Shown: positions 5,218-64,000 of the stretch, in pieces
Numbering within the stretch: the stretch's first letter is position 1
Layout: the number at the start of each line of letters is the position of its first letter
The notes under the pieces: model-generated
Seen by the model: only the letters and a program-made list of their open reading frames with translations
Databases searched by the model: none
Told to the model about the DNA's origin: nothing
Origin: Candidatus Aminicenantes bacterium
Lineage (GTDB): Bacteria > Acidobacteriota > Aminicenantia > Aminicenantales > UBA4085
NCBI GenBank assembly: GCA_003141555.1
Contig: PLMN01000028.1
Span: 2,785-66,784, forward strand
DNA length: 64,000 bases
Direction: 5' to 3'
Translations under genes and position numbers: made by a program

Positions 5218-5460
5218 ATTGTTAGGGCAATGGTAAGCAGAATTCCCATTGTCTGATCCTCTCGATCGTTTCCCAACTTATTGCCCTGTCAAGTTTTTGG
5301 GGTCCACCTCACAATCCGTGGGCGAAACTTTTGAGCTTCTTCGACCGGCTGGGGTGCTTGAGTTTGCGCAGAGCCTTTAAGTTCTTTTCGGAGACAGATG
5401 AAGGATATGTCTTAATATATTGTTGATTGAGGTTCATTCACTATTTTGGCTTCACTGAAT

Positions 5461-19653: not shown

Positions 19654-20078
19654 TTAGATCCAATAAAATTCTGAATTTCAAAGTTGACGCCAAATCGGCT
19701 ATCCCGGCCTACGAGCAGATTAAACGTGCCATCAAACTGGCCATCGTCTCTGGTTACTTGGAGGAAGGAGACCAACTCATGTCTCTCCGGGAGCTCGCCC
19801 TGAAGCTCACCGTCAATCCCAACACTATAATCAAGGTTTATGACCAACTCGAGACAGAGGATTTCATCTATTCCAAGCCGGGGGCAGGCTATTACGTCAA
19901 GGTTGATCACGCCAGAATCCTACCGAGAAGACGCGATCTTTTTCAAGAAATCACTGAGGAATATATTTCGAAAGCTCTGCAACTTGGATACTCCGGCGAA
20001 GACATGTCCAAAGAAATTTCCCAATTAACTGGCGAGAACATGTTGATTCGGGACAGAAAGGATAAATCTGATGATTGA
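19650..20078 (+). CDS. GntR-family transcriptional regulator, YtrA subfamily
   Basis: 142 aa. Winged-HTH SAIPAYEQIKRAIKLAIVSGYLEEGDQLMSLRELALKLTVNPNTIIKVY and a short C-terminus. Sits upstream of an ABC ATPase/permease. Confidence 0.75.
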   Translation: MIRSNKILNFKVDAKSAIPAYEQIKRAIKLAIVSGYLEEGDQLMSLRELALKLTVNPNTIIKVYDQLETEDFIYSKPGAGYYVKVDHARILPRRRDLFQEITEEYISKALQLGYSGEDMSKEISQLTGENMLIRDRKDKSDD

Positions 20079-57420: not shown

Positions 57421-57493
57421 GGCGAGGTAGCTCAGTCGGTAGAGCGAGGGACTGAAAATCCCTGCGTCGGCGGTTCAATTCCGTCCCTCGCCA
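57421..57493 (+). tRNA. tRNA-Phe (anticodon GAA)
   Basis: 73 nt. Acceptor stem GGCGAGG/CCTCGCC, D-arm GCTCAGTCGGTAGAGC, anticodon loop CTGAAAA (GAA), T-arm GGCGGTTCAATTCCGTC. CCA is not encoded. Confidence 0.9.
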
Positions 57494-57614
57494 TTCCCTT
57501 CCCCCTCCCCGAGAGATGCGCGAAAATCATTGTTTTTATTGATCTTTATACCTGTCTGGAGCCTCGGAAATACCGAGAAAGAGTGAGAAAATAAGCGAAA
57601 CGGGATGAAGTGAT

Positions 57615-57705
57615 TGTGGCGTAAAACTACGCCACAGTCGGCCCCGAGAAATTCTAATTATTGGATTTTGGTGAGGGCTATTGTGGCGTGGTTTTTAGGC
57701 CACAC
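57615..57705 (+). repeat. Two copies of ATTGTGGCGT, each followed by its inverted complement (hairpins TGTGGCGT-N6-ACGCCACA and TGTGGC-N11-GCCACA)
   Basis: Read directly at 57615-57635 and 57680-57705 in the AT-rich leader between the tRNA and the first islet gene. Confidence 0.4.
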
Positions 57706-57855
57706 TCCTGACGCAAGCATTTTTTCAGTTTGAGACACAATCTGGTCACAGTGCCCAAAAATTATTAGAGTAAAAATAGAAATAATTTAAGATTTTTTTC
57801 TCGTTCATCTGTAGCGACTTCCAGAGCCTTTTTTTGCCTCGCCCCGTCCTCTGAT

Positions 57856-57884
57856 TTGACATTTAATATAATATATTATATTAT
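57856..57884 (+). promoter_or_regulatory. Strong sigma70-like promoter TTGACA-N17-TATTAT (islet module 1)
   Basis: -35 at 57856-57861, -10 at 57879-57884. About 20 nt of upstream sequence is identical to the module-2 promoter. Confidence 0.5.
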
Positions 57885-57918
57885 TCATTTGGAAATTAGG
57901 ATTGAAAGGAGAAAAAGG

Positions 57919-58839
57919 ATGAACGAAGCGGAGGACGGAGGAACGGCGAAGGTGCGGCGGGCCAACCTGCAGAAGGGCTACGAAACGGAAAAGTGGGAAA
58001 CCGTATACGCCGGCATGCGGGCCCAGGGCAAAACGATTGCCCAGGCGAAGGCTGAGGCGTGGGCTCTGGTGGATTCCATGCGGCGGGCCGAGGCGATCCA
58101 GGACCGTGACGCCGTGCTGGACAAGGTGTTTGCGGAATCCGCTGGCGCTGACATGGTAGCCGCCGCCGCCCAGGCGCCGGGCTTGGATCCCGCGGCCGCT
58201 TCCCTGGCTTGGGAGAGCAAGGGCCAGGCCGAGTACTGCGAAGGCTGCGGCCAGCAAGCTTGCAACGTGATTCTGAAGATTGGCGAAATCTGTGGCGACC
58301 GGATCGAGCCCGACAGGGCCCTGGACGAGTACGTTGAGGCGAATACGGACCAGGCCCAGCCGATTGAGGACCCGGACACGGATGACGCCGGCTGCCCCAG
58401 CGCGGTTGACGAAAAGTCGCCGGCCCAGCTGGTCCGGTGCCCCAGTTGCGGAATGGCCATGTTGCGGCGCGAGCCCTGCGCGTATTGCGGCGCCCGGTTC
58501 GATGAACCGGCCTCGACCGAAGAAAACCTGGCCGCCGAAATGGCCGCCCAGAATAAGGCCAAGCGGGCCGCCAAAAGAGCCACGTTGAAGGGCGCTAAAG
58601 GCCGCCTCTCCAAGAATGCCATAAAGGAAATTTTAATGGCCTCTAAGGTATTCGCTGAGCCGCCCGCCCGCAAGAAGGCCCGCAAGGCCCGGGTTTCCAT
58701 GAAGCAGCCCAGCGAAGAAACGATCGACAAGTGGATGTTCGATGGCTACTGCAAGGCGACGGACGGCTGCAGGGTCGAGCCGGACGGCACGTGCGAGCAC
58801 GGCTGCAAGTCCTGGGCGCTTGTGCTGAATCTGATCTGA
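57919..58839 (+). CDS. Hypothetical protein with multiple CxxC zinc-ribbon-like motifs (306 aa)
   Basis: ATG 57919 with RBS AAAGGAG. Motifs CEGCGQQAC, CPSCG...CAYCG, and C..GC..C..C. Basic KR-rich segment. No recognisable family. Confidence 0.5.
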   Translation: MNEAEDGGTAKVRRANLQKGYETEKWETVYAGMRAQGKTIAQAKAEAWALVDSMRRAEAIQDRDAVLDKVFAESAGADMVAAAAQAPGLDPAAASLAWESKGQAEYCEGCGQQACNVILKIGEICGDRIEPDRALDEYVEANTDQAQPIEDPDTDDAGCPSAVDEKSPAQLVRCPSCGMAMLRREPCAYCGARFDEPASTEENLAAEMAAQNKAKRAAKRATLKGAKGRLSKNAIKEILMASKVFAEPPARKKARKARVSMKQPSEETIDKWMFDGYCKATDGCRVEPDGTCEHGCKSWALVLNLI

Positions 58840-58852
58840 AAGGGGAAATGCA

Positions 58853-59041
58853 GTGAAAGAATATTACAACGTGGGCGGGATGCAGGACCAAATTGAGAAG
58901 GGTCATTTTGCCATTATCCGGGATCGAAAAAGGCTTATGTCAGGGATGCCGTTGTACAAGGCCAAGGAATATGCAGAGAGATTCGGCGGCAAGGTCGTTG
59001 ACATGGAATCCCCTGCATGGGCCGGGCTGAAAGAGGAATGA
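58853..59041 (+). CDS. Small hypothetical protein (62 aa)
   Basis: ORF with RBS-like GGGGAAATG context. Stop overlaps the next start (ATGA). Confidence 0.35.
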   Translation: MKEYYNVGGMQDQIEKGHFAIIRDRKRLMSGMPLYKAKEYAERFGGKVVDMESPAWAGLKEE

Positions 59042-59460
59042 ACATGAGTGCTTTTATGCTGAGCGACTACGCCCTTTCCAAACTGGCCCGAGCCGCCCTG
59101 GCCGTGGCCCCTGACCTATTCGCTGGCTACAATGACGGGCACAAATCAATGACTATCTATGGCAGCCCGACGCCCGCCGAGTGGTTGGCCACGGACCTCT
59201 TTTTGCTCAACGGCCTGGCCATGCGGGCGCGATACGGCGAGGTCCACGACGCCGCTGAATTCCGCTACGAGGAATCCCGGGGCGGCCACGATACCGACGT
59301 CCGACTTTACAAGTCAATCCGCTGCTTTCTCTACCAGTGCAGCGAGGGCGACGTGCCTGAAAAGCCCTTGTTCAAGCTGATGGAGCAGTTTTCCGCGGAC
59401 GTTGCCGGTGATATAATCTGGGCACTCCCCAGCTGGGACGAGCTGCCCTGGGGGGAATGA
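59038..59460 (+). CDS. Hypothetical protein (about 140 aa)
   Basis: ATGA-coupled to both the preceding and the following gene. No family recognised. Confidence 0.4.
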   Translation: MNMSAFMLSDYALSKLARAALAVAPDLFAGYNDGHKSMTIYGSPTPAEWLATDLFLLNGLAMRARYGEVHDAAEFRYEESRGGHDTDVRLYKSIRCFLYQCSEGDVPEKPLFKLMEQFSADVAGDIIWALPSWDELPWGE

Positions 59461-59654
59461 GGATCAAAAAAATGGGCACAAGAGTCAAGAAAACGGACAA
59501 GCGGCCCCGCGGCAGGCCGGTTTCGACGGGTACCGGGAAGGGGATCTCGCTCTACCTTCCCGTCAAGCTGATACAGGCCTTGAAAGCGAAGGCGCCGAAG
59601 GGCCACACCCTGGAAGCGTTCATCCGGGAGATACTGGAATTCTATCTCTTGTAG
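59457..59654 (+). CDS. AT-hook + ribbon-helix-helix-like small DNA-binding protein (65 aa)
   Basis: KRPRGRPVSTGTGKGISLYLPVKLIQALKAKAPKGHTLEAFIREILEFYL: RGRP AT-hook followed by a beta-alpha-alpha RHH pattern. Paralog of 60761..60946. Confidence 0.5.
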   Translation: MRIKKMGTRVKKTDKRPRGRPVSTGTGKGISLYLPVKLIQALKAKAPKGHTLEAFIREILEFYLL

Positions 59655-60123
59655 TAATCGTACCAGTGGCCGGCCGCTGCGTCATGACGTATATTTCAGC
59701 CCGGATCGTCGCCGGGCCGCCTCCCCCTGCCCCGGTCAGCTCCCGCCAGCTTTTCTGAGGGCCAATCTTCCAGCTTTCCCTAGCTTCACGGCTGCATCCA
59801 AGTCCGGCGCGTTCGTCTGCTGGAAGGCCGCCCTCGATAGATGCTCGAAACACAGGAATCCAAGTCCCGTCATCGTCTGCATGATTTAGACGAGGGAAGG
59901 GGCTTTGAACAATCCCGCCGCCCTACCTGATGATACCATTTTCTCGAGGAAAATGCCTCCCAGGAAGAGACAGAAAGAGACTCAAAAAGACCATTTCTGT
60001 TACAATTTTAGGGACATTCATTTAATTTTCGGCGAGCAAAAACAAAAGATTTTATAAGATTTATTTGTCGTTGTATTTTCATCGATATACAGAACATTTT
60101 CTGGCAGCCGATCCCCTCCTGAT

Positions 60124-60152
60124 TTGACATTTAATATATTCTAATATATTAT
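60124..60152 (+). promoter_or_regulatory. Second copy of the TTGACA-N17-TATTAT promoter (islet module 2)
   Basis: -35 at 60124-60129, -10 at 60147-60152. Flanking CTGATTTGACATTTAATAT is identical to module 1. Confidence 0.5.
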
Positions 60153-60194
60153 ATGGCCATGATAAACAATGAAAAGGAAAAACAGGGGGCTAGA

Positions 60195-60443
60195 ATGGAA
60201 AAGCAGGCAGTCCATAATTCCAAATGCGTGGTCGAGTACGACCCCGAGCGGAAAGAAATTTTCGCTCGGGATTTAACCGACACATTCAACGAGCCGGCCA
60301 TTTATAGCAAAACGAAGCGCGGGATCCGGGCGGCTTGGGATGAGCTGACGAAAACCTTTACGCCTGAAACCCGACTCCACGATGTTGTCAAAACGCTGGA
60401 AGCGAAAAACATCCGGACGCACTACTGGTGCATGGTGGATTAA
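60195..60443 (+). CDS. Hypothetical protein (about 82 aa)
   Basis: ATG 60195 preceded by a GGGGG RBS. The upstream ATG at 60153 abuts the -10 element and is unlikely to be transcribed. Confidence 0.4.
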   Translation: MEKQAVHNSKCVVEYDPERKEIFARDLTDTFNEPAIYSKTKRGIRAAWDELTKTFTPETRLHDVVKTLEAKNIRTHYWCMVD

Positions 60444-60454
60444 AGGGGGGCATT

Positions 60455-60757
60455 ATGCCTGCATTTACAGCGAAGGGGAATGAACTCTTCATCGAGGGCC
60501 GCAAGGTCCTCGCGGGATGGGAATCGTTTTCAGGATGGTACTGGTTCGCGACGGAGAAGTCCGAGGAGCGGAAGCTCAGCGATGGCGGGGGCTCTGTCTT
60601 TGACGGGGTGGCTGTTGATGATACGATATGGTTCGGATTCATACAGGGCCAGGTGTCGGAATGGGGCTATTTCAGCGAAGCCGAGATCAGGCGGCTGGGG
60701 TCCAGAGCGTGGAGGATCAAAGAATGCGATCTCCCGTTCTCTGGCCGGAGAAGATAA
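60455..60757 (+). CDS. Hypothetical Trp/Gly-rich protein (about 100 aa)
   Basis: ATG 60455 with RBS AAAGGGGGG. No family recognised. Confidence 0.4.
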   Translation: MPAFTAKGNELFIEGRKVLAGWESFSGWYWFATEKSEERKLSDGGGSVFDGVAVDDTIWFGFIQGQVSEWGYFSEAEIRRLGSRAWRIKECDLPFSGRRR

Positions 60758-60760
60758 AAT

Positions 60761-60946
60761 ATGATCGCAAAGAAACTGAAATCAGCGAAGCCCCGGCGCG
60801 GCCGGCCTGTGTCCACGGGGACCGGGGTTTCGATTTCGCTCTATCTCCCAAAGCCAATGATGGACGCCCTTTTCAAGATGACGCCCAAGGGATCCACGCT
60901 CGGGGATACGATCCGGAAACTGATCGCCGAAAGGCTGGGCCGTTAG
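60761..60946 (+). CDS. AT-hook + RHH-like small DNA-binding protein (61 aa), paralog of 59457..59654
   Basis: KPRRGRPVSTGTGVSISLYLPKPMMDALFKMTPKGSTLGDTIRKLIAERL is collinear with the module-1 protein. Confidence 0.5.
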   Translation: MIAKKLKSAKPRRGRPVSTGTGVSISLYLPKPMMDALFKMTPKGSTLGDTIRKLIAERLGR

Positions 60947-61246
60947 CTTATTCCATGGCCAGCCGTTCCGGCCGGTCAGATGAACTGGCATCGTCGAGGT
61001 AAGGCAAGCTCCCTCGCTGGAAGGCCGGGGCTGACAGAGTTCGTATTTCGGATATCCGAGGCTCCGCATGGTCCCCATGTGATCAGCGATAATCATTATT
61101 CCCCGTCCAACGACGATTATTTAGATTCCATGAGCCGGGAAATATATTTCACTGATCACGTGAGTTACAAAAAGGTGCATTTCTGCTGAAAATAGAGAGT
61201 AGGGGAGGCTCTCTATGAGGCAAAGAACACTAGTTTCCTTGACGCG

Positions 61247-62425
61247 GTGCATGGAAGCGGTAAAATGAAAGCACGAGTTTGGGAGACATCTGTGAGCGGA
61301 AAAGATTGCGGGCTATCTGGGAAATCCCGCCGAATACCTCTTCGCAGGTTTCCCGCCCTGATCCAGAAAACGACTGTCGCCTTGCTCTTCGGAGGCCGCT
61401 CCGCGGAGCACGAGGTTTCGATCCGCTCGGCCGCCGCTGTCTTTCGCAACCTTGACCCGAAGAAATTCCGCGTCGCCGCGATCTACATCGACAAGTGCGG
61501 CCGCTGGAAGCGAGTCGCCTCTCCCCTGTTGCCTATCGAACGGCTGGCCGCCGGTCCGGCCTCCGATTTCCTGCCCTGGGCCGGGACAAAGTCCGCCCCT
61601 CCGATCCGGGCGGACATCTATTTCCCCGTGCTCCACGGACCTTACGGAGAGGACGGCACCATCCAGGGGCTCCTCGAGATGGCCGACGTCCCCTTCGTCG
61701 GGCCGGGGGTCCTCGGCTCCGCAGTGGGCATGGACAAGGCCGTGATGAAGGTCCTGTTCGAGGCCGCGGGCGTGCCGATCGTCCCCTTTCGCGTCGTCCG
61801 GGAGGCCGCCTGGCGGCGGGACCCTGGCGCCGTCCTCCGCGCCGTCCGGCGCGAGTTCGGGTTGCCGCTCTTCGTGAAGCCGGCGAATCTCGGCTCGAGC
61901 GTCGGTATCACCAAGGTCGCGGACCGCGCGGCGACGCGGGCCGCAATCGAGCTCGCGTTCGCTTACGACCGGAAGGTCCTCGTCGAAAAAGGCATCCGGG
62001 GCCGCGAACTCGAATGCAGCGTCCTGGGCAACGACGCGCCCGAAGCATCGCTCCCCGGCGAGGTCATCCCGCACGGCGAATTCTACGACCAAAACAGCAT
62101 GTACATCGCCGGCCGGACCGTCTTCTATATCCCCGCTCGCCTGCCCGCCGGCGTCGTGCAGGCCGTTCGGAAAGCAGCCGTGGCGGCCTTCACTGCCTGC
62201 GAATGCGAGGGCATGGCTCGCGTCGATTTCTTCCTCGAAGGAGGAAGCGGGCGGCTTTACGTCAATAAGCTCAATACCATCTCGAGCTTCACCGAGATCA
62301 GTATGTACCCCAAGCTCTGGGAGGCTAGCGGCCTGGCCTACCCCCGCCTCCTCGAACGGCTCCTCGGTCTCGGGTTCGAACGGCATAAAGCGAAAAAGCG
62401 ATGCATAGTGAGAACGCGGCCATGA
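61247..62425 (+). CDS. ddl: D-alanine--D-alanine ligase
   Basis: ALLFGGRSAEHEVSIRSAAAV N-domain and ATP-grasp motifs (LFVKPANLGSSVGI). Host-like high GC. The N-terminus as called may be over-extended by about 30 aa. Confidence 0.85.
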   Translation: MHGSGKMKARVWETSVSGKDCGLSGKSRRIPLRRFPALIQKTTVALLFGGRSAEHEVSIRSAAAVFRNLDPKKFRVAAIYIDKCGRWKRVASPLLPIERLAAGPASDFLPWAGTKSAPPIRADIYFPVLHGPYGEDGTIQGLLEMADVPFVGPGVLGSAVGMDKAVMKVLFEAAGVPIVPFRVVREAAWRRDPGAVLRAVRREFGLPLFVKPANLGSSVGITKVADRAATRAAIELAFAYDRKVLVEKGIRGRELECSVLGNDAPEASLPGEVIPHGEFYDQNSMYIAGRTVFYIPARLPAGVVQAVRKAAVAAFTACECEGMARVDFFLEGGSGRLYVNKLNTISSFTEISMYPKLWEASGLAYPRLLERLLGLGFERHKAKKRCIVRTRP

Positions 62426-62522
62426 GGACGTTCTCTGGTCGTCCTATCCCGAAATATCATTTCGCTTTGTTATGGAATCAAATTTCTGCGATAGACTACG
62501 AAGCTCATTCTCATATGTCACA

Positions 62523-62774
62523 TTAATTCCTTTTTCGTTCTAATAGCCCAAAAATAATCCCGTATAGAATTGCGATAACTAAAGCGAGGAGTATTACCGA
62601 AACTGTATTTGTGCTGGCGCTAATGTTAAATATTTTGATTACTGCCTTTGACCAATTCTCCAGCATGTTATAAAAATTAGGAAGGAATTTTCTTATTAAT
62701 TCACTTACCAGTAATCCGAATACAATACTCAATATAAAAGACGAACCATGATGGGCACCATGTCTCAGAGGCAA
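62523..62774 (-). CDS. Small two-TM membrane protein (83 aa), AT-rich
   Basis: Two hydrophobic helices. Lies in the low-GC terminal segment next to clpP. Confidence 0.35.
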   Translation of the reverse strand: MPLRHGAHHGSSFILSIVFGLLVSELIRKFLPNFYNMLENWSKAVIKIFNISASTNTVSVILLALVIAILYGIIFGLLERKRN

Positions 62775-62802
62775 TAAGATGGCTCCTTTAGGATTTAAGA
62801 AC

Positions 62803-63363
62803 TCATCTTTTATTGAGTTTTAAAAGCGGAATTATGTGATCGATAATTCCGAATTTCTTCGCTTCCTTGACGTTTAGCCAGAGATCCCTTTGTATACTCT
62901 TTTCTATTATGTCTTTGGATTTTTTTGTATGAAACGAAAGAATCTTAATCATCCGATCTTCCAGATCGACTATATTTTCCGCAGCTATCTTTAAATCAGA
63001 CGTTGTCCCTGAAGTCTGCGCCCAAGCCTGATGCAGGAGAATCCGCGAGTTCATCGTCGCGTATCTTTTTCCGGATTCCCCAGCTGCAAGAATCCAAGCC
63101 GCCATCGAAAAAGCCGGGCCGATACAAAATGTCGATATTGGAGCCTCAATCATTTGAATACAGTCGTATATTGCTAATCCGGCATAAACACTTCCGCCGC
63201 CGCTTGAAATATAGAGCCGAATATCCGATTTTTTATCAAGACTATTCAATACCAACAAATTGGTAATGACATGATCAGCGCTGGAATTGTCAATCTCGCC
63301 GGAAAGATAAATAATCCGATTCTCTAACAGATGCTGCAGAGGAGACATCGATATTTTTGCCAA
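62803..63363 (-). CDS. clpP: ATP-dependent Clp protease proteolytic subunit (divergent, low-GC copy)
   Basis: 186 aa. Ser-His-Asp triad positions conserved (GPAFSMAAW, RILLHQAW, IQRDLW). Very AT-rich, in contrast to the host genes. Confidence 0.8.
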   Translation of the reverse strand: MAKISMSPLQHLLENRIIYLSGEIDNSSADHVITNLLVLNSLDKKSDIRLYISSGGGSVYAGLAIYDCIQMIEAPISTFCIGPAFSMAAWILAAGESGKRYATMNSRILLHQAWAQTSGTTSDLKIAAENIVDLEDRMIKILSFHTKKSKDIIEKSIQRDLWLNVKEAKKFGIIDHIIPLLKLNKR

Positions 63364-63377
63364 TACAATCTCCTTTC

Positions 63378-64000
63378 TTATCGATACTTTATTTTGGCGA
63401 TTTTTACCCTGTTTTTTTTTAGTTCTCTATCGAACGAAATACTTTCGATCGCATCCCAATCCGAGCCGAGTTTGCATTCCGCCAGAATCGATCCCAATTG
63501 CTCGTCCAAGACGTGGTTAAGCTTTCTGGCTCCATATTCCTTACTAAAACCTTCTTCGATAATGAGATCTATCGCTTTTTCCGATAAAAATAAAATCTTT
63601 TCGTTTTGTTTTTCCAATTGCTGGCGTTTTTGTTCTATAAAGCCCTTCATCATTTCTCTGCTTAATGGTTTCAAAATCAATATTTCATCTATCCTTCCAA
63701 GGAACTCGGGGGGAAATACGTTTCTAACCTCCTCTTGAACCCCGGCTTTTATGTCCTCCCAGCCTTTATTAGCTCTTGGATAATCGATGATGGCATCTCG
63801 GCCGCTGAAGCCGATATTTGCGGTCATAAGAATAGTAGTGCTATCGAAATATAGTTCGTTGCCGAGGTAGTCTAGTATTCTTCCTGCGTCGAATATCTGA
63901 AGGAAAAGCATCCAGATCTCTCGACTCGCTTTTTCAATCTCATCGAGAAGAAGAATCGCGTTTGGCTTGCTGCGGATTTGATAAGTGAGAAAAGGTACTT
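63378..64000 (-). CDS. ClpA/ClpC-type AAA+ chaperone, C-terminal part (5' end lies beyond the window)
   Basis: The D2 sensor-2/small domain PEFLGRIDEILILKPLS and ..EYGARKLNHVLDEQL are present. The frame stays open upstream of the listed ATG through ..ILLLDEIEKASREIW (Walker B) to the window edge. Confidence 0.75.
   Translation of the reverse strand, partial: VPFLTYQIRSKPNAILLLDEIEKASREIWMLFLQIFDAGRILDYLGNELYFDSTTILMTANIGFSGRDAIIDYPRANKGWEDIKAGVQEEVRNVFPPEFLGRIDEILILKPLSREMMKGFIEQKRQQLEKQNEKILFLSEKAIDLIIEEGFSKEYGARKLNHVLDEQLGSILAECKLGSDWDAIESISFDRELKKNRVKIAKIKYR

What the first reader, a model, noticed from the sequence alone, without database searches (positions are those of the whole stretch)
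57494..61200. tRNA-Phe-adjacent islet of small genes in two promoter-driven modules, lacking an integrase
Immediately 3' of tRNA-Phe the GC content falls and seven small plus-strand ORFs appear in two units.

- Module 1: a 306-aa multi-CxxC zinc-ribbon protein, 62-aa and 140-aa proteins, and a 65-aa AT-hook/RHH protein, all ATGA-coupled.
- Module 2: 82-aa and 100-aa proteins and a 61-aa AT-hook/RHH paralog.

Each module is headed by a near-identical CTGATTTGACATTTAATAT..TATTAT promoter. tRNA 3' ends are classic integration sites. However, no integrase, excisionase, replication or structural gene is present. This may be a degraded integrative element, a satellite-like element, or a small self-contained regulatory or defence cassette of unknown function.
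Basis: seen in the sequence. Interest (0 to 1): 0.7.

Follow-up and report, generated by a model that had tools for sequence, protein, structure and literature searches.

The report
Two phage-derived self-regulated gene cassettes
The stretch between tRNA-Phe and the ddl gene holds two tandem phage-type "moron" cassettes, each a strong promoter, a few small phage accessory genes of unknown function and a small DNA-binding repressor gene, not a mobile island with its own integration machinery.

Summary
There are seven plus-strand ORFs in two units after tRNA-Phe. Each unit is headed by the same near-consensus sigma-70 promoter and closed by a paralogous small ribbon-helix-helix (RHH) gene. No integrase is present.

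The GC dip comes almost entirely from the AT-rich intergenic DNA; the genes have host-like GC3. No repeat of the tRNA 3' end was found.

The same frame (TTGACAwwTAATAT promoter plus a GRPVS-type RHH as last gene) occurs in two siphovirus-like contigs. There it lies in reverse orientation between a glycosyltransferase gene and the tail-completion gene, with different cargo. It also occurs in a related bacterial population, where the cargo is shuffled (O1 + O5-like + O6 + O4-type RHH).

The O1 C-terminal tail, O3, O5 and O6 belong to families without Pfam or PADLOC matches, each found in 15-33 viral contigs. dN/dS against relatives is 0.11-0.50.

Best reading: two moron-type cassettes, each autorepressed by its terminal RHH. 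They are either what remains of a prophage or were acquired by recombination. Cargo function is unknown, probably phage-host conflict.

It is a new variant of a known kind, of moderate interest.

The parts
57421..57493 (+). tRNA-Phe (GAA), left neighbour of the islet
   Evidence: ARAGORN; Rfam tRNA 71.4 bits
57612..57707 (.). Long imperfect hairpin holding two TGTGGC-N-GCCACA palindromes (57615-57636, 57682-57704). Role unexplained; it lies outside the duplicated cassette leader.
   Evidence: z = -3.35; 2 found, 0 expected
57768..57918 (+). Cassette 1 leader. AT-rich upstream region, then promoter TTGACA (57856-57861) - 17 nt - TATTAT (57879-57884). An 18-bp perfect palindrome AATATAATATATTATATT (57865-57882) lies in the spacer and -10 region and is the putative RHH operator. 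RBS AAAGGAG.
   Evidence: 91% identical to the relative L211 over the 110 nt up to the O1 start and 95% over promoter plus O1 5' end; five-way promoter alignment
57919..58839 (+). O1, 306 aa. Helical N-terminal part, CxxC/zinc-ribbon middle, Lys/Arg-rich linker, and a conserved ~45-aa C-terminal tail (W..DG..KATDGCRVEPDGTCEHG..SW). The tail is shared with many phage proteins.
   Evidence: 33 viral loci; T4-like contig; dN/dS 0.43 versus L211; no Pfam, PHROG or PADLOC family
58853..59041 (+). O2, 62 aa, GTG start. An orphan whose coding status is uncertain.
   Evidence: Only a self-hit in 1.84 billion representatives; not called on L001; absent from the related cassette
59038..59460 (+). O3, 140 aa, predicted helical, with the invariant motif CFLYQCSEGDVP. 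Belongs to a family of small phage/plasmid accessory proteins.
   Evidence: 19 viral loci; ANMV-1 virus; long arrays of small orphan genes downstream of a DNA methylase gene; pLDDT 57
59457..59654 (+). O4, 65 aa. RGRP (AT-hook-like) arm plus ribbon-helix-helix; putative autorepressor of cassette 1.
   Evidence: Sub-threshold Pfam RHH hits; profile best PDB hit is pRN1 ORF56, E 0.005; ortholog P0017, dN/dS 0.12
59677..60033 (.). Spacer between the cassettes, partly GC-rich, with no supported gene. Homology to the related cassette ends at about 59676.
60034..60194 (+). Cassette 2 leader. Promoter TTGACA (60124-60129) - 17 nt - TATTAT (60147-60152). Two copies of the palindromic 8-mer AATATATT (60133-60140, 60143-60150).
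60195..60443 (+). O5, 82 aa. Member of a widespread uncharacterised ~80-aa family with the C-terminal motif IRTHYWCMVD.
   Evidence: About 155 representative clusters; 15 viral loci; 66% identical copy in the phage cassette L159; dN/dS 0.21; no consistent Pfam or PHROG family
60455..60757 (+). O6, 100 aa, Trp-rich and predicted beta-rich domain (WESFSGWYWFA...DTIWFG...EWG.FSEAEI). Elsewhere it also occurs as the C-terminal domain of longer phage early-region proteins.
   Evidence: 15 viral loci; adjacent to an O3-like gene in L116; pLDDT 59; dN/dS 0.11-0.20
60761..60946 (+). O7, 61 aa. RGRP arm plus RHH, paralog of O4; putative autorepressor of cassette 2. Homology with L210 ends about 6 nt after its stop codon, which marks the right edge of the cassette.
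61139..61150 (.). Palindrome GAAATATATTTC, containing a fourth islet copy of AATATATT. It lies between cassette 2 and the ddl promoter (61239-61266). It may be an extra RHH site or may be chance in AT-rich DNA.
   Evidence: I6; 4 of the 6 window copies lie in the islet

Best explanation
The tRNA-Phe-ddl interval carries two tandem phage-derived 'moron-type' expression cassettes. Each has three parts:
1. An AT-rich leader of about 120 bp with a near-consensus sigma-70 promoter (TTGACA-17-TATTAT), whose spacer is filled with TA-rich palindromes.
2. Two or three small cargo genes from uncharacterised families that otherwise occur in accessory or early regions of phages and plasmids.
3. As last, translationally coupled gene, a ~60-aa ribbon-helix-helix protein with an N-terminal basic RGRP arm.

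Proposed mechanism (inferred): the strong promoter fires when no repressor is present. The RHH, made last from the same mRNA, binds the palindromic spacer and -10 region as a dimer or tetramer, with the RGRP arm in the AT-rich minor groove. This shuts the cassette down to a low steady-state level, which is negative autoregulation as in CopG or pRN1 ORF56.

The promoter + RHH pair behaves as a conserved frame within which cargo is exchanged by recombination. The chromosomal pair is not an autonomous integrative element. It is either what remains of a prophage whose other genes were lost, or was acquired by recombination. It is kept under purifying selection.

Cargo function is not shown. The most likely role is in phage-host or phage-phage conflict (superinfection exclusion or counter-defence).
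For: Shown:
- Duplicated promoter/leader: exactly 2 copies, 0 expected.
- RHH paralogs close both units. The RHH profile's best PDB hits are RHH proteins: pRN1 ORF56 (E 0.005), AvtR and HP0222. Pfam and NCBIfam RHH hits are sub-threshold.
- The same frame occurs in phage contig L159: TTGACATTTAATAT... promoter, a 76-aa gene, an O5 homolog (66%), then a GRPVSTG-type RHH. It lies antiparallel between the tail-completion gp17 / tail-tube genes and a glycosyltransferase gene.
- Phage contig L212 has the same locus, promoter and RHH, but its cargo is an unrelated 201-aa protein.
- The related bacterial cassette (L211 + L209) has a promoter and O1 5' end 95% identical to the window. Its cargo is O1' - O5-like - O6' - O4-type RHH.
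- Homology stops within 6-20 nt after the RHH stop codons.
- The five-way promoter alignment keeps TTGACA, TAATAT and a downstream TA-rich run invariant, while the cargo differs.
- Cargo families occur in viral contigs: O3 in 19 loci, O6 in 15, O5 in 15, the O1 tail in 33. O6-like and O3-like genes are adjacent in L116.
- Neighbours of these homologs include orphan DNA methylases, DUF932, RadC, LPD29/30, Acb2/Tad1 and RtcB.
- dN/dS is 0.11-0.50 for O1, O4, O5, O6 and O7.
- The moron concept is taken from PMC3594210.
Against: - No transcript, binding or phenotype data exist. RHH-operator binding and autorepression are inferred only from co-conservation and from analogy to other RHH regulators.
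- No intrinsic terminator was found at the end of either cassette, whereas classical morons have one.
- The TA-rich palindromes are partly an automatic property of alternating TA tracts.
- The two phage contigs are short (under 5 kb). The RHH family is very small: six sequences in total.
- The neighbour-function signal rests on a few hits among 140 sampled ORFs.
- AlphaFold models of O3 and O6 were poor (pLDDT 57 and 59) and fold searches were uninformative.
- Whether the locus is an insertion could not be tested. No syntenic relative was retrievable.
Confidence: 0.68

Rival explanations
1. A degraded integrative element (prophage or island) that entered at the 3' end of tRNA-Phe by site-specific recombination, then lost its integrase, att site and all other genes. 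This concerns origin and is compatible with the cassette reading.
For: The islet lies directly 3' of a tRNA gene. All sizeable genes have phage relatives. Phages do use this kind of site: one viral contig carries a 51-nt, 92% copy of this tRNA-Phe 3' part without a tRNA. A second foreign, low-GC islet lies just beyond ddl, so the region accepts foreign DNA.
Against: No direct repeat of the tRNA 3' end occurs within 11 kb. No recombinase lies within about 10 kb. No phage structural, replication or lysis gene remnants were found in the intergenic DNA by tblastx. Gene GC3 is host-like. The exact tRNA 3' 22-mer is absent from IMG/VR, and the contig with the 51-nt match has no islet homologs.
Confidence: 0.3
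2. Toxin-antitoxin or abortive-infection/defence modules. The terminal RHH would be the antitoxin and transcriptional autoregulator, and an upstream small protein (such as O6 or O3) the toxin or effector.
For: RHH antitoxins that autoregulate their operon are common (established knowledge). The RHH is translationally coupled to the gene before it. Weak Pfam similarity to the FitA and CopG antitoxin RHH families. Prophage morons often encode exclusion or defence functions (PMC3594210).
Against: In the retrieved loci, O3, O5 and O6 homologs occur in 49 viral loci (19 + 15 + 15), and only L159 has an adjacent RHH of this family. The same RHH/promoter frame carries unrelated cargo in L212 and L159. 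An obligate toxin-antitoxin pair would co-vary. There are no PADLOC hits and no recognisable toxin fold or motif.
Confidence: 0.12
3. Counter-defence or host-takeover cargo retained from a phage early or leading-type region. Expression would burst on DNA entry and then be shut off by the RHH. This is a specific version of the cargo function under the best explanation.
For: Homologs lie in long same-strand arrays of small orphan genes downstream of a DNA methylase gene, next to Cro/HTH and excisionase-like genes, and near Acb2/Tad1, LPD29/30, DUF932, RadC and orphan methylases. Strong promoter with a delayed repressor.
Against: In L159 and L212 the cassette sits in the late/structural region, not an early region. 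A chromosome gains no obvious benefit from anti-defence genes, yet the genes are under purifying selection there. No match to any named anti-defence family.
Confidence: 0.2
4. A phage satellite or other small autonomous mobile element.
For: Small size, tRNA-adjacent location, small regulators.
Against: There is no integrase, primase/replicase, packaging or capsid-redirecting gene, and there are no terminal repeats.
Confidence: 0.03

Closest known systems
Phage morons (independent transcription units inserted between conserved phage genes; Juhala/Hendrix concept, reviewed in PMC3594210)
   Same: - Own strong promoter.
- Small accessory genes unrelated to the neighbours.
- In L159 and L212, placed antiparallel between a glycosyltransferase gene and the tail-completion gene, with different content at the same position.
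- Spread between genomes.
   Different: - Carries its own dedicated repressor gene as the last gene.
- No detectable intrinsic terminator.
- The promoter + repressor frame is conserved while the cargo is exchanged.
- Here two copies sit in a bacterial chromosome with no other prophage gene.
CopG / pRN1 ORF56-type ribbon-helix-helix autorepressors (plasmid copy-control operons)
   Same: - Small RHH (~45-aa core).
- Best solved-structure match is ORF56, and the alignment includes the N-terminal GRP.
- Palindromic DNA overlaps the promoter of the RHH's own operon. On that basis the RHH is predicted, not shown, to bind there and autorepress.
   Different: - In CopG and ORF56 operons the RHH is the first gene and the partner is a replication protein.
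- Here the RHH is last, and the partners are small phage accessory proteins.
- There is an extra basic RGRP arm.
tRNA-linked genomic islands / integrative elements
   Same: Directly 3' of a tRNA gene. Content is of mobile-element ancestry.
   Different: No recombinase, no att repeat, and no compositional deviation of the coding sequence.
Leading-region / early-region anti-defence gene arrays of plasmids and phages; polyvalent-protein domains (from my own knowledge of Iyer et al. 2017 and Samuel et al. 2024, not read here)
   Same: Small orphan same-strand genes. O3, O5, O6 and O1-tail homologs neighbour orphan methylases, DUF932, RadC, LPD29/30 and Acb2/Tad1.
   Different: No named anti-defence family is present. 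The location is chromosomal, and in phages it is the late region.

Membership tests
Phage moron | Own promoter, independent of the flanking operons | tested here: met
   TTGACA-17-TATTAT, 11 of 12 to consensus, at both units. The same promoter is present in L159, L212 and L211. This is a consensus match only, with no transcript data.
Phage moron | Own transcription terminator | tested here: not met
   The terminator scan found no plus-strand intrinsic terminator after O4 or O7. The only plus-strand hit, at 59623-59638, lies inside O4.
Phage moron | Sits between conserved phage genes, with variable content among related phages | tested here: met
   In L159 and L212 the cassette lies antiparallel between the GT2/LicD gene and the gp17 tail-completion gene. 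The cargo is a 76-aa gene plus an O5-like gene in one, and a 201-aa protein in the other.
Phage moron | Resides in a phage or prophage genome | tested here: not met
   In the window, no other phage gene lies within about 10 kb on either side, and tblastx of the intergenic DNA found no remnants. The chromosomal copies are therefore moron-derived rather than morons in the strict sense.
Ribbon-helix-helix (CopG/Arc/MetJ superfamily) | Sequence or profile match to the beta-strand/helix/helix core | tested here: inconclusive
   Pfam FitA-like_RHH, CopG_antitoxin and RHH_1 hits at E 0.03-0.2, below cut-off. The profile versus PDB gave ORF56 E 0.005, AvtR 0.014 and HP0222 0.07. NCBIfam ORF56 gave E 0.006 for the L159 copy. 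hhalign versus CopG gave probability 2%. The direction is consistent, but each hit is individually weak.
Ribbon-helix-helix (CopG/Arc/MetJ superfamily) | Binds repeated or palindromic operator DNA in its own promoter | not testable with these tools
   Palindromes are present (57865-57882; 60133-60150), and the promoter is co-conserved with the RHH across five cassettes. Binding was not tested.
AT-hook | R-G-R-P core flanked by basic residues | tested here: met
   KRPRGRPV (O4), KPRRGRPV (O7), and KRRPGRPV (L159, L212). This is motif level only. ORF56 also begins with GRP, so the motif may simply be the N-terminal arm of this RHH subfamily.
tRNA-integrated island / integrative element | Tyrosine or serine recombinase | tested here: not met
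   No such Pfam family in the islet proteins or in the genes within 10 kb.
tRNA-integrated island / integrative element | Direct repeat of the tRNA 3' end at the far border | tested here: not met
None at 12/12, 13/14, 15/17 or 17/20 on either strand within 11 kb.
tRNA-integrated island / integrative element | Absent from the same locus in close relatives | not testable with these tools
   The ddl-based genome scan gave no syntenic relative: best hits 71% and 64% on short contigs without tRNA-Phe. The long contigs carrying P0002 and P0017 were not retrievable.
Type II toxin-antitoxin | Toxin family is consistently paired with its antitoxin | tested here: not met
   An RHH of this family is adjacent to only 1 of 49 viral loci holding O3, O5 or O6 homologs. 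The cargo under the same RHH is interchangeable.
Known anti-phage defence systems (PADLOC) | Match to a defence-system protein model | tested here: not met
   No hit for any of the seven proteins at E <= 1.
Phage satellites (P4-like, PICI, PLE) | Integrase, primase/replicase and packaging or capsid-redirection genes | tested here: not met
   None among the seven proteins.

The most novel reading that the evidence does not exclude
The conserved promoter/operator + terminal-RHH frame may be a portable 'expression shuttle'. Its two conserved ends would serve as recombination handles, letting phage accessory genes be swapped in and out and letting whole cassettes move between phage genomes and bacterial chromosomes without a dedicated recombinase. 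This would be an integron-like cassette economy for phage accessory genes. The O1 tail, O3, O5 and O6 would be four undescribed families of conflict proteins.
Probability: 0.12. Interest if true: 0.7.

Novelty: new variant of a known kind. Interest (0 to 1): 0.4.

Why it matters
Morons and prophage remnants are an important source of new host traits, but most described examples come from well-studied enterobacterial and Pseudomonas phages.

Here a defined frame, consisting of a promoter and its own RHH repressor, is seen carrying five different cargo sets. It occurs in phages and in chromosomes of a poorly known, uncultured lineage (Aminicenantes-like). This gives a concrete and testable example of how accessory genes are packaged, regulated and exchanged.

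It also flags four protein families or domains with no Pfam annotation. The O5 family has about 155 clusters at 50% identity. The O1 C-terminal Cys/His tail is present even in T4-like phages. O3 and O6 are the other two. All four are worth structural and functional work.

None of this overturns current ideas, so the interest is moderate.

Tried and rejected
1. Pfam, PHROGs, PADLOC and NCBIfam scans of all seven proteins gave no family above threshold.
2. PDB sequence searches for O1, O3 and O6 found nothing.
3. AlphaFold2 models were poor: O3 (4-sequence alignment) had pLDDT 57 and O6 had pLDDT 59. Foldseek against PDB gave only noise. No functional inference was drawn from them.
4. An apparent O3-O4 fusion appeared in tblastn hits to the ANMV-1 virus and pMA100. 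It was rejected because the alignments run past the annotated stop codons.
5. The genome-contig scan with ddl, meant to find the empty site in relatives, returned no syntenic relative.
6. The metagenome scan with the RHH profile returned two spurious hits.
7. A promoter 20-mer scan of IMG/VR returned 33 hits. All were AT-rich chance matches except the L159 contig itself.
8. The search for an att repeat and for the tRNA 3' 22-mer in viral contigs found nothing. The 16-mer gave 7 loci, none related to the islet.
9. The inverted repeat flanking the islet (57558-57571 / 61052-61065, 13 of 14) was judged to be at chance expectation for 4 kb (my estimate).
10. Minus-strand ORFs in the spacer (59620-59882) have no family hits and were not called as genes.
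11. O1 and P0012 (the zinc-ribbon/O6 fusion) share only a generic CxxC motif.
12. The concatenated-query search failed to return even the exact self-proteins. Its silence on O2, O5 and the RHH was therefore not trusted, and the exhaustive search was used instead.

Full report
**What is there**

ARAGORN and Rfam place tRNA-Phe(GAA) at 57421-57493. Seven plus-strand ORFs lie between it and ddl (about 61292-62425):
- O1, 57919-58839, 306 aa
- O2, 58853-59041, 62 aa, GTG start
- O3, 59038-59460, 140 aa
- O4, 59457-59654, 65 aa
- O5, 60195-60443, 82 aa
- O6, 60455-60757, 100 aa
- O7, 60761-60946, 61 aa

The O2/O3 and O3/O4 junctions are ATGA overlaps. O1 and O2 are 13 nt apart.

The 19-mer CTGATTTGACATTTAATAT occurs exactly twice in the 64-kb window (57851 and 60119), with 0 expected in shuffles. 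Both copies are TTGACA-17-TATTAT promoters matching 11 of 12 consensus positions. Similarity between the two leaders runs over about 120 bp.

O4 and O7 are paralogs (55% identity, E 2e-15). The window is identical to contigs from three independent datasets (ENA, Logan, JGI), so it is not an assembly artefact.

**Composition and integration signals**

The islet is 54.5% GC against 61.8% for the window. The deficit lies in the three intergenic stretches (40%, 48% and 50% GC). Gene GC3 is 0.60-0.80, against 0.67-0.80 for the flanking ddl, response-regulator and histidine-kinase genes.

No repeat of the tRNA 3' end exists within 11 kb downstream, at thresholds of 12/12, 13/14, 15/17 or 17/20 on either strand. 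No recombinase, replication or structural gene lies within about 10 kb. The 22-nt 3' end of the tRNA is absent from IMG/VR. A 16-mer search found one viral contig with a 51-nt attP-like copy, but that contig is unrelated to the islet.

Integration at the tRNA is therefore not supported by any positive signal. It cannot be excluded for an old, eroded event.

**What the genes are**

None of the seven proteins reaches threshold in Pfam, PHROGs, PADLOC or NCBIfam. O1, O3 and O6 have no sequence relative in the PDB. The sizeable proteins nevertheless all have relatives in mobile elements.

- **O1.** It shares only its last ~45 residues (W..DG..KATDGCRVEPDGTCEHG..SW....G.I) with otherwise unrelated proteins. 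This tail occurs in 33 viral contigs. One is a T4-like contig, where the gene lies between the portal and prohead-protease genes.
- **O3.** Its invariant motif is CFLYQCSEGDVP. Relatives occur in 19 viral contigs, in the ANMV-1 virus and plasmid pMA100, and in contigs made of long same-strand arrays of small orphan genes downstream of a DNA methylase gene.
- **O5.** It belongs to a family of about 155 clusters at 50% identity, seen in 15 viral contigs. No consistent Pfam or PHROG family matches it.
- **O6.** It occurs in 15 viral contigs. It also forms the C-terminal domain of longer proteins next to Cro-like and excisionase-like HTH genes. In L116 an O6-like gene is directly followed by an overlapping O3-like gene.
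- **O2.** It has no homolog other than itself, and its coding status is uncertain.

A sample of 140 neighbouring ORFs around these viral homologs gave few Pfam hits. Those found include orphan DNA methylases, DUF932, RadC, DUF3560, LPD29/30, Acb2/Tad1, RtcB, YopX and terminases. These are phage accessory or conflict-type neighbourhoods. The evidence is circumstantial.

**The key comparative result**

The RHH family is tiny. It comprises O4, O7, their orthologs P0017 and P0159, and two phage copies. Both phage copies sit in cassettes with the same promoter.

- **Phage contig L159.** The order is TTGACATTTAATATTATATAG..., a 76-aa gene, an O5 homolog (66% identity), then a 108-aa protein beginning KRRPGRPVSTGKGVSITIYI.
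- **Phage contig L212.** The order is TTGACATTTAATATTATATGTG..., an unrelated 201-aa Cys-rich protein, then a 63-aa RHH.

In both contigs the cassette lies antiparallel between a GT2/LicD glycosyltransferase gene and the gp17 tail-completion and tail-tube genes. That is the classical position and layout of a moron, defined in PMC3594210 as an independent transcription unit disseminated among phage genomes.

- **Related bacterial population (L211 + L209).** The two contigs overlap at 99.5% identity. The promoter and O1 5' end are 95% identical to the window, with -10 = TATAAT. The cargo is O1' (270 aa), an O5-like protein (136 aa), O6' (95 aa) and an O4-type RHH.

Homology to the window stops about 20 nt after the O4-type stop codon. 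In L210 it stops about 6 nt after the O7-type stop codon.

Five cassettes therefore share the promoter and the RHH but differ in cargo. The five-way promoter alignment keeps TTGACA, TAATAT and a downstream TA-rich run invariant. Against these relatives, dN/dS is 0.11-0.50 for O1, O4, O5, O6 and O7, so these are constrained protein-coding genes.

**How it most likely works**

Shown:
- The promoter consensus match.
- The palindromes in the spacer and -10 region: an 18-bp perfect palindrome at 57865-57882, and two AATATATT copies at 60133-60150. Four of the six AATATATT copies in the window lie in the islet.
- The RHH-like nature of O4 and O7. The best PDB hits of the family profile are RHH proteins: pRN1 ORF56 (E 0.005), AvtR and HP0222. 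Pfam RHH hits are below threshold.
- The RGRP basic arm.
- Co-conservation of promoter and RHH across changing cargo.

Inferred:
- The RHH binds the TA-rich palindrome and represses its own promoter, as CopG/ORF56-type regulators do.
- Because the RHH is the last gene, the cassette gives a burst of cargo expression when repressor is absent, then settles at a low autoregulated level.

Cargo function is unknown. Given where the homologs live, I favour a role in phage-host or phage-phage conflict.

A toxin-antitoxin reading is unlikely. The cargo families nearly always occur without this RHH (1 of 49 viral loci), and the same RHH frame carries unrelated cargo.

**Origin**

Two origins fit the data. 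The pair may be the residue of a prophage of the L159/L212 type, whose morons were kept while everything else was lost. Alternatively, the cassettes were acquired by recombination.

In one sequencing run, the window-type contig (L221) starts at window position 58134. That is exactly where the alignment of the shuffled variant's contig (L209) with the window begins. The two contigs thus appear to end at one shared point, downstream of the near-identical promoter and O1 5' segment. The break point is consistent with an assembly-graph branch between two co-occurring variants, which is my inference and fits mosaic recombination. The data cannot decide between the two origins, because no syntenic relative could be retrieved.

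**Comparison with known systems and verdict**

The cassettes work like morons combined with a CopG/ORF56-type autoregulatory circuit. Strict membership of 'moron' fails on two points. No terminator was found. In this window the cassettes are not inside a phage genome.

Membership of tRNA-integrated islands, satellites, type II toxin-antitoxin systems and known defence systems fails on tested defining features.

I rate it a new variant of a known kind, of moderate interest (0.4). The more novel possibility is that the promoter + RHH frame is a general shuttle for cargo exchange between phages and chromosomes. I give that about 0.12 probability.

Noticed in passing
window 62418-64000, continuing to about 66400 (L001 14500-18500): A ~4-kb low-GC islet (36-46% GC against 62% for the host) lies immediately after ddl. 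It encodes a ClpP-like protease (181 aa, minus strand), a Clp/AAA+ ATPase (603 aa, minus strand) and a 282-aa protein with no Pfam hit. It is a much stronger compositional anomaly than the finding itself.
   Followed up: partly
window 57612-57707: Two palindromes of the form TGTGGC-N-GCCACA (57615-57636 and 57682-57704) are unique in the window. They lie 67 nt apart inside a long imperfect hairpin between tRNA-Phe and cassette 1 (z = -3.35). There is no Rfam match and the function is unknown.
   Followed up: partly
window 61139-61150: The palindrome GAAATATATTTC contains another AATATATT motif and lies about 90 nt upstream of the ddl promoter-like site (61239-61266). It may be an extra RHH site that would couple ddl expression to the cassettes, or it may be chance.
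   Followed up: no
O1 residues ~262-306 (window 58702-58836); L002 3965-5560; L126-L158: A ~45-aa C-terminal Cys/His tail (ATDGC[RK]VE.DG.CEHG..SW) is attached to many unrelated N-terminal regions in phage proteins. It occurs in 33 IMG/VR loci and a few plasmids. One case is a 531-aa protein between the portal and prohead-protease genes of a T4-like contig. No Pfam family matches.
   Followed up: partly
window 60195-60443; P0016-P0164: O5 defines an uncharacterised ~80-aa domain family of about 155 clusters at 50% identity. It occurs alone or as a C-terminal domain, ends in IRTHYWCMVD, and has no consistent Pfam or PHROG family.
   Followed up: partly
L116 1575-2245: In one viral contig an O6-like gene (94 aa) and an O3-like gene (129 aa) are adjacent and overlap by 4 nt. 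This links cargo from the two window cassettes.
   Followed up: yes
L209 1685-1843: In the related population, the cassette is followed after about 180 nt by an ORF starting MEAKKTCPFCGSSK...YRCLACGRGF. It is a zinc ribbon with only weak Pfam similarity (Zn_ribbon_8, Lar), and the contig ends inside it.
   Followed up: partly
L217 4259-4309: A viral contig (45% GC) carries a 51-nt, 92% identical copy of the 3' part of this tRNA-Phe without a tRNA gene, which is attP-like. It has no homologs of the islet genes.
   Followed up: yes
window 5414-5421 and 19960-19967: These are the only two other copies of AATATATT in the window. An ATTCTGGCGT near-match to the IG1 repeat lies at 19909-19918, close to the second copy. 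Neither was examined.
   Followed up: no
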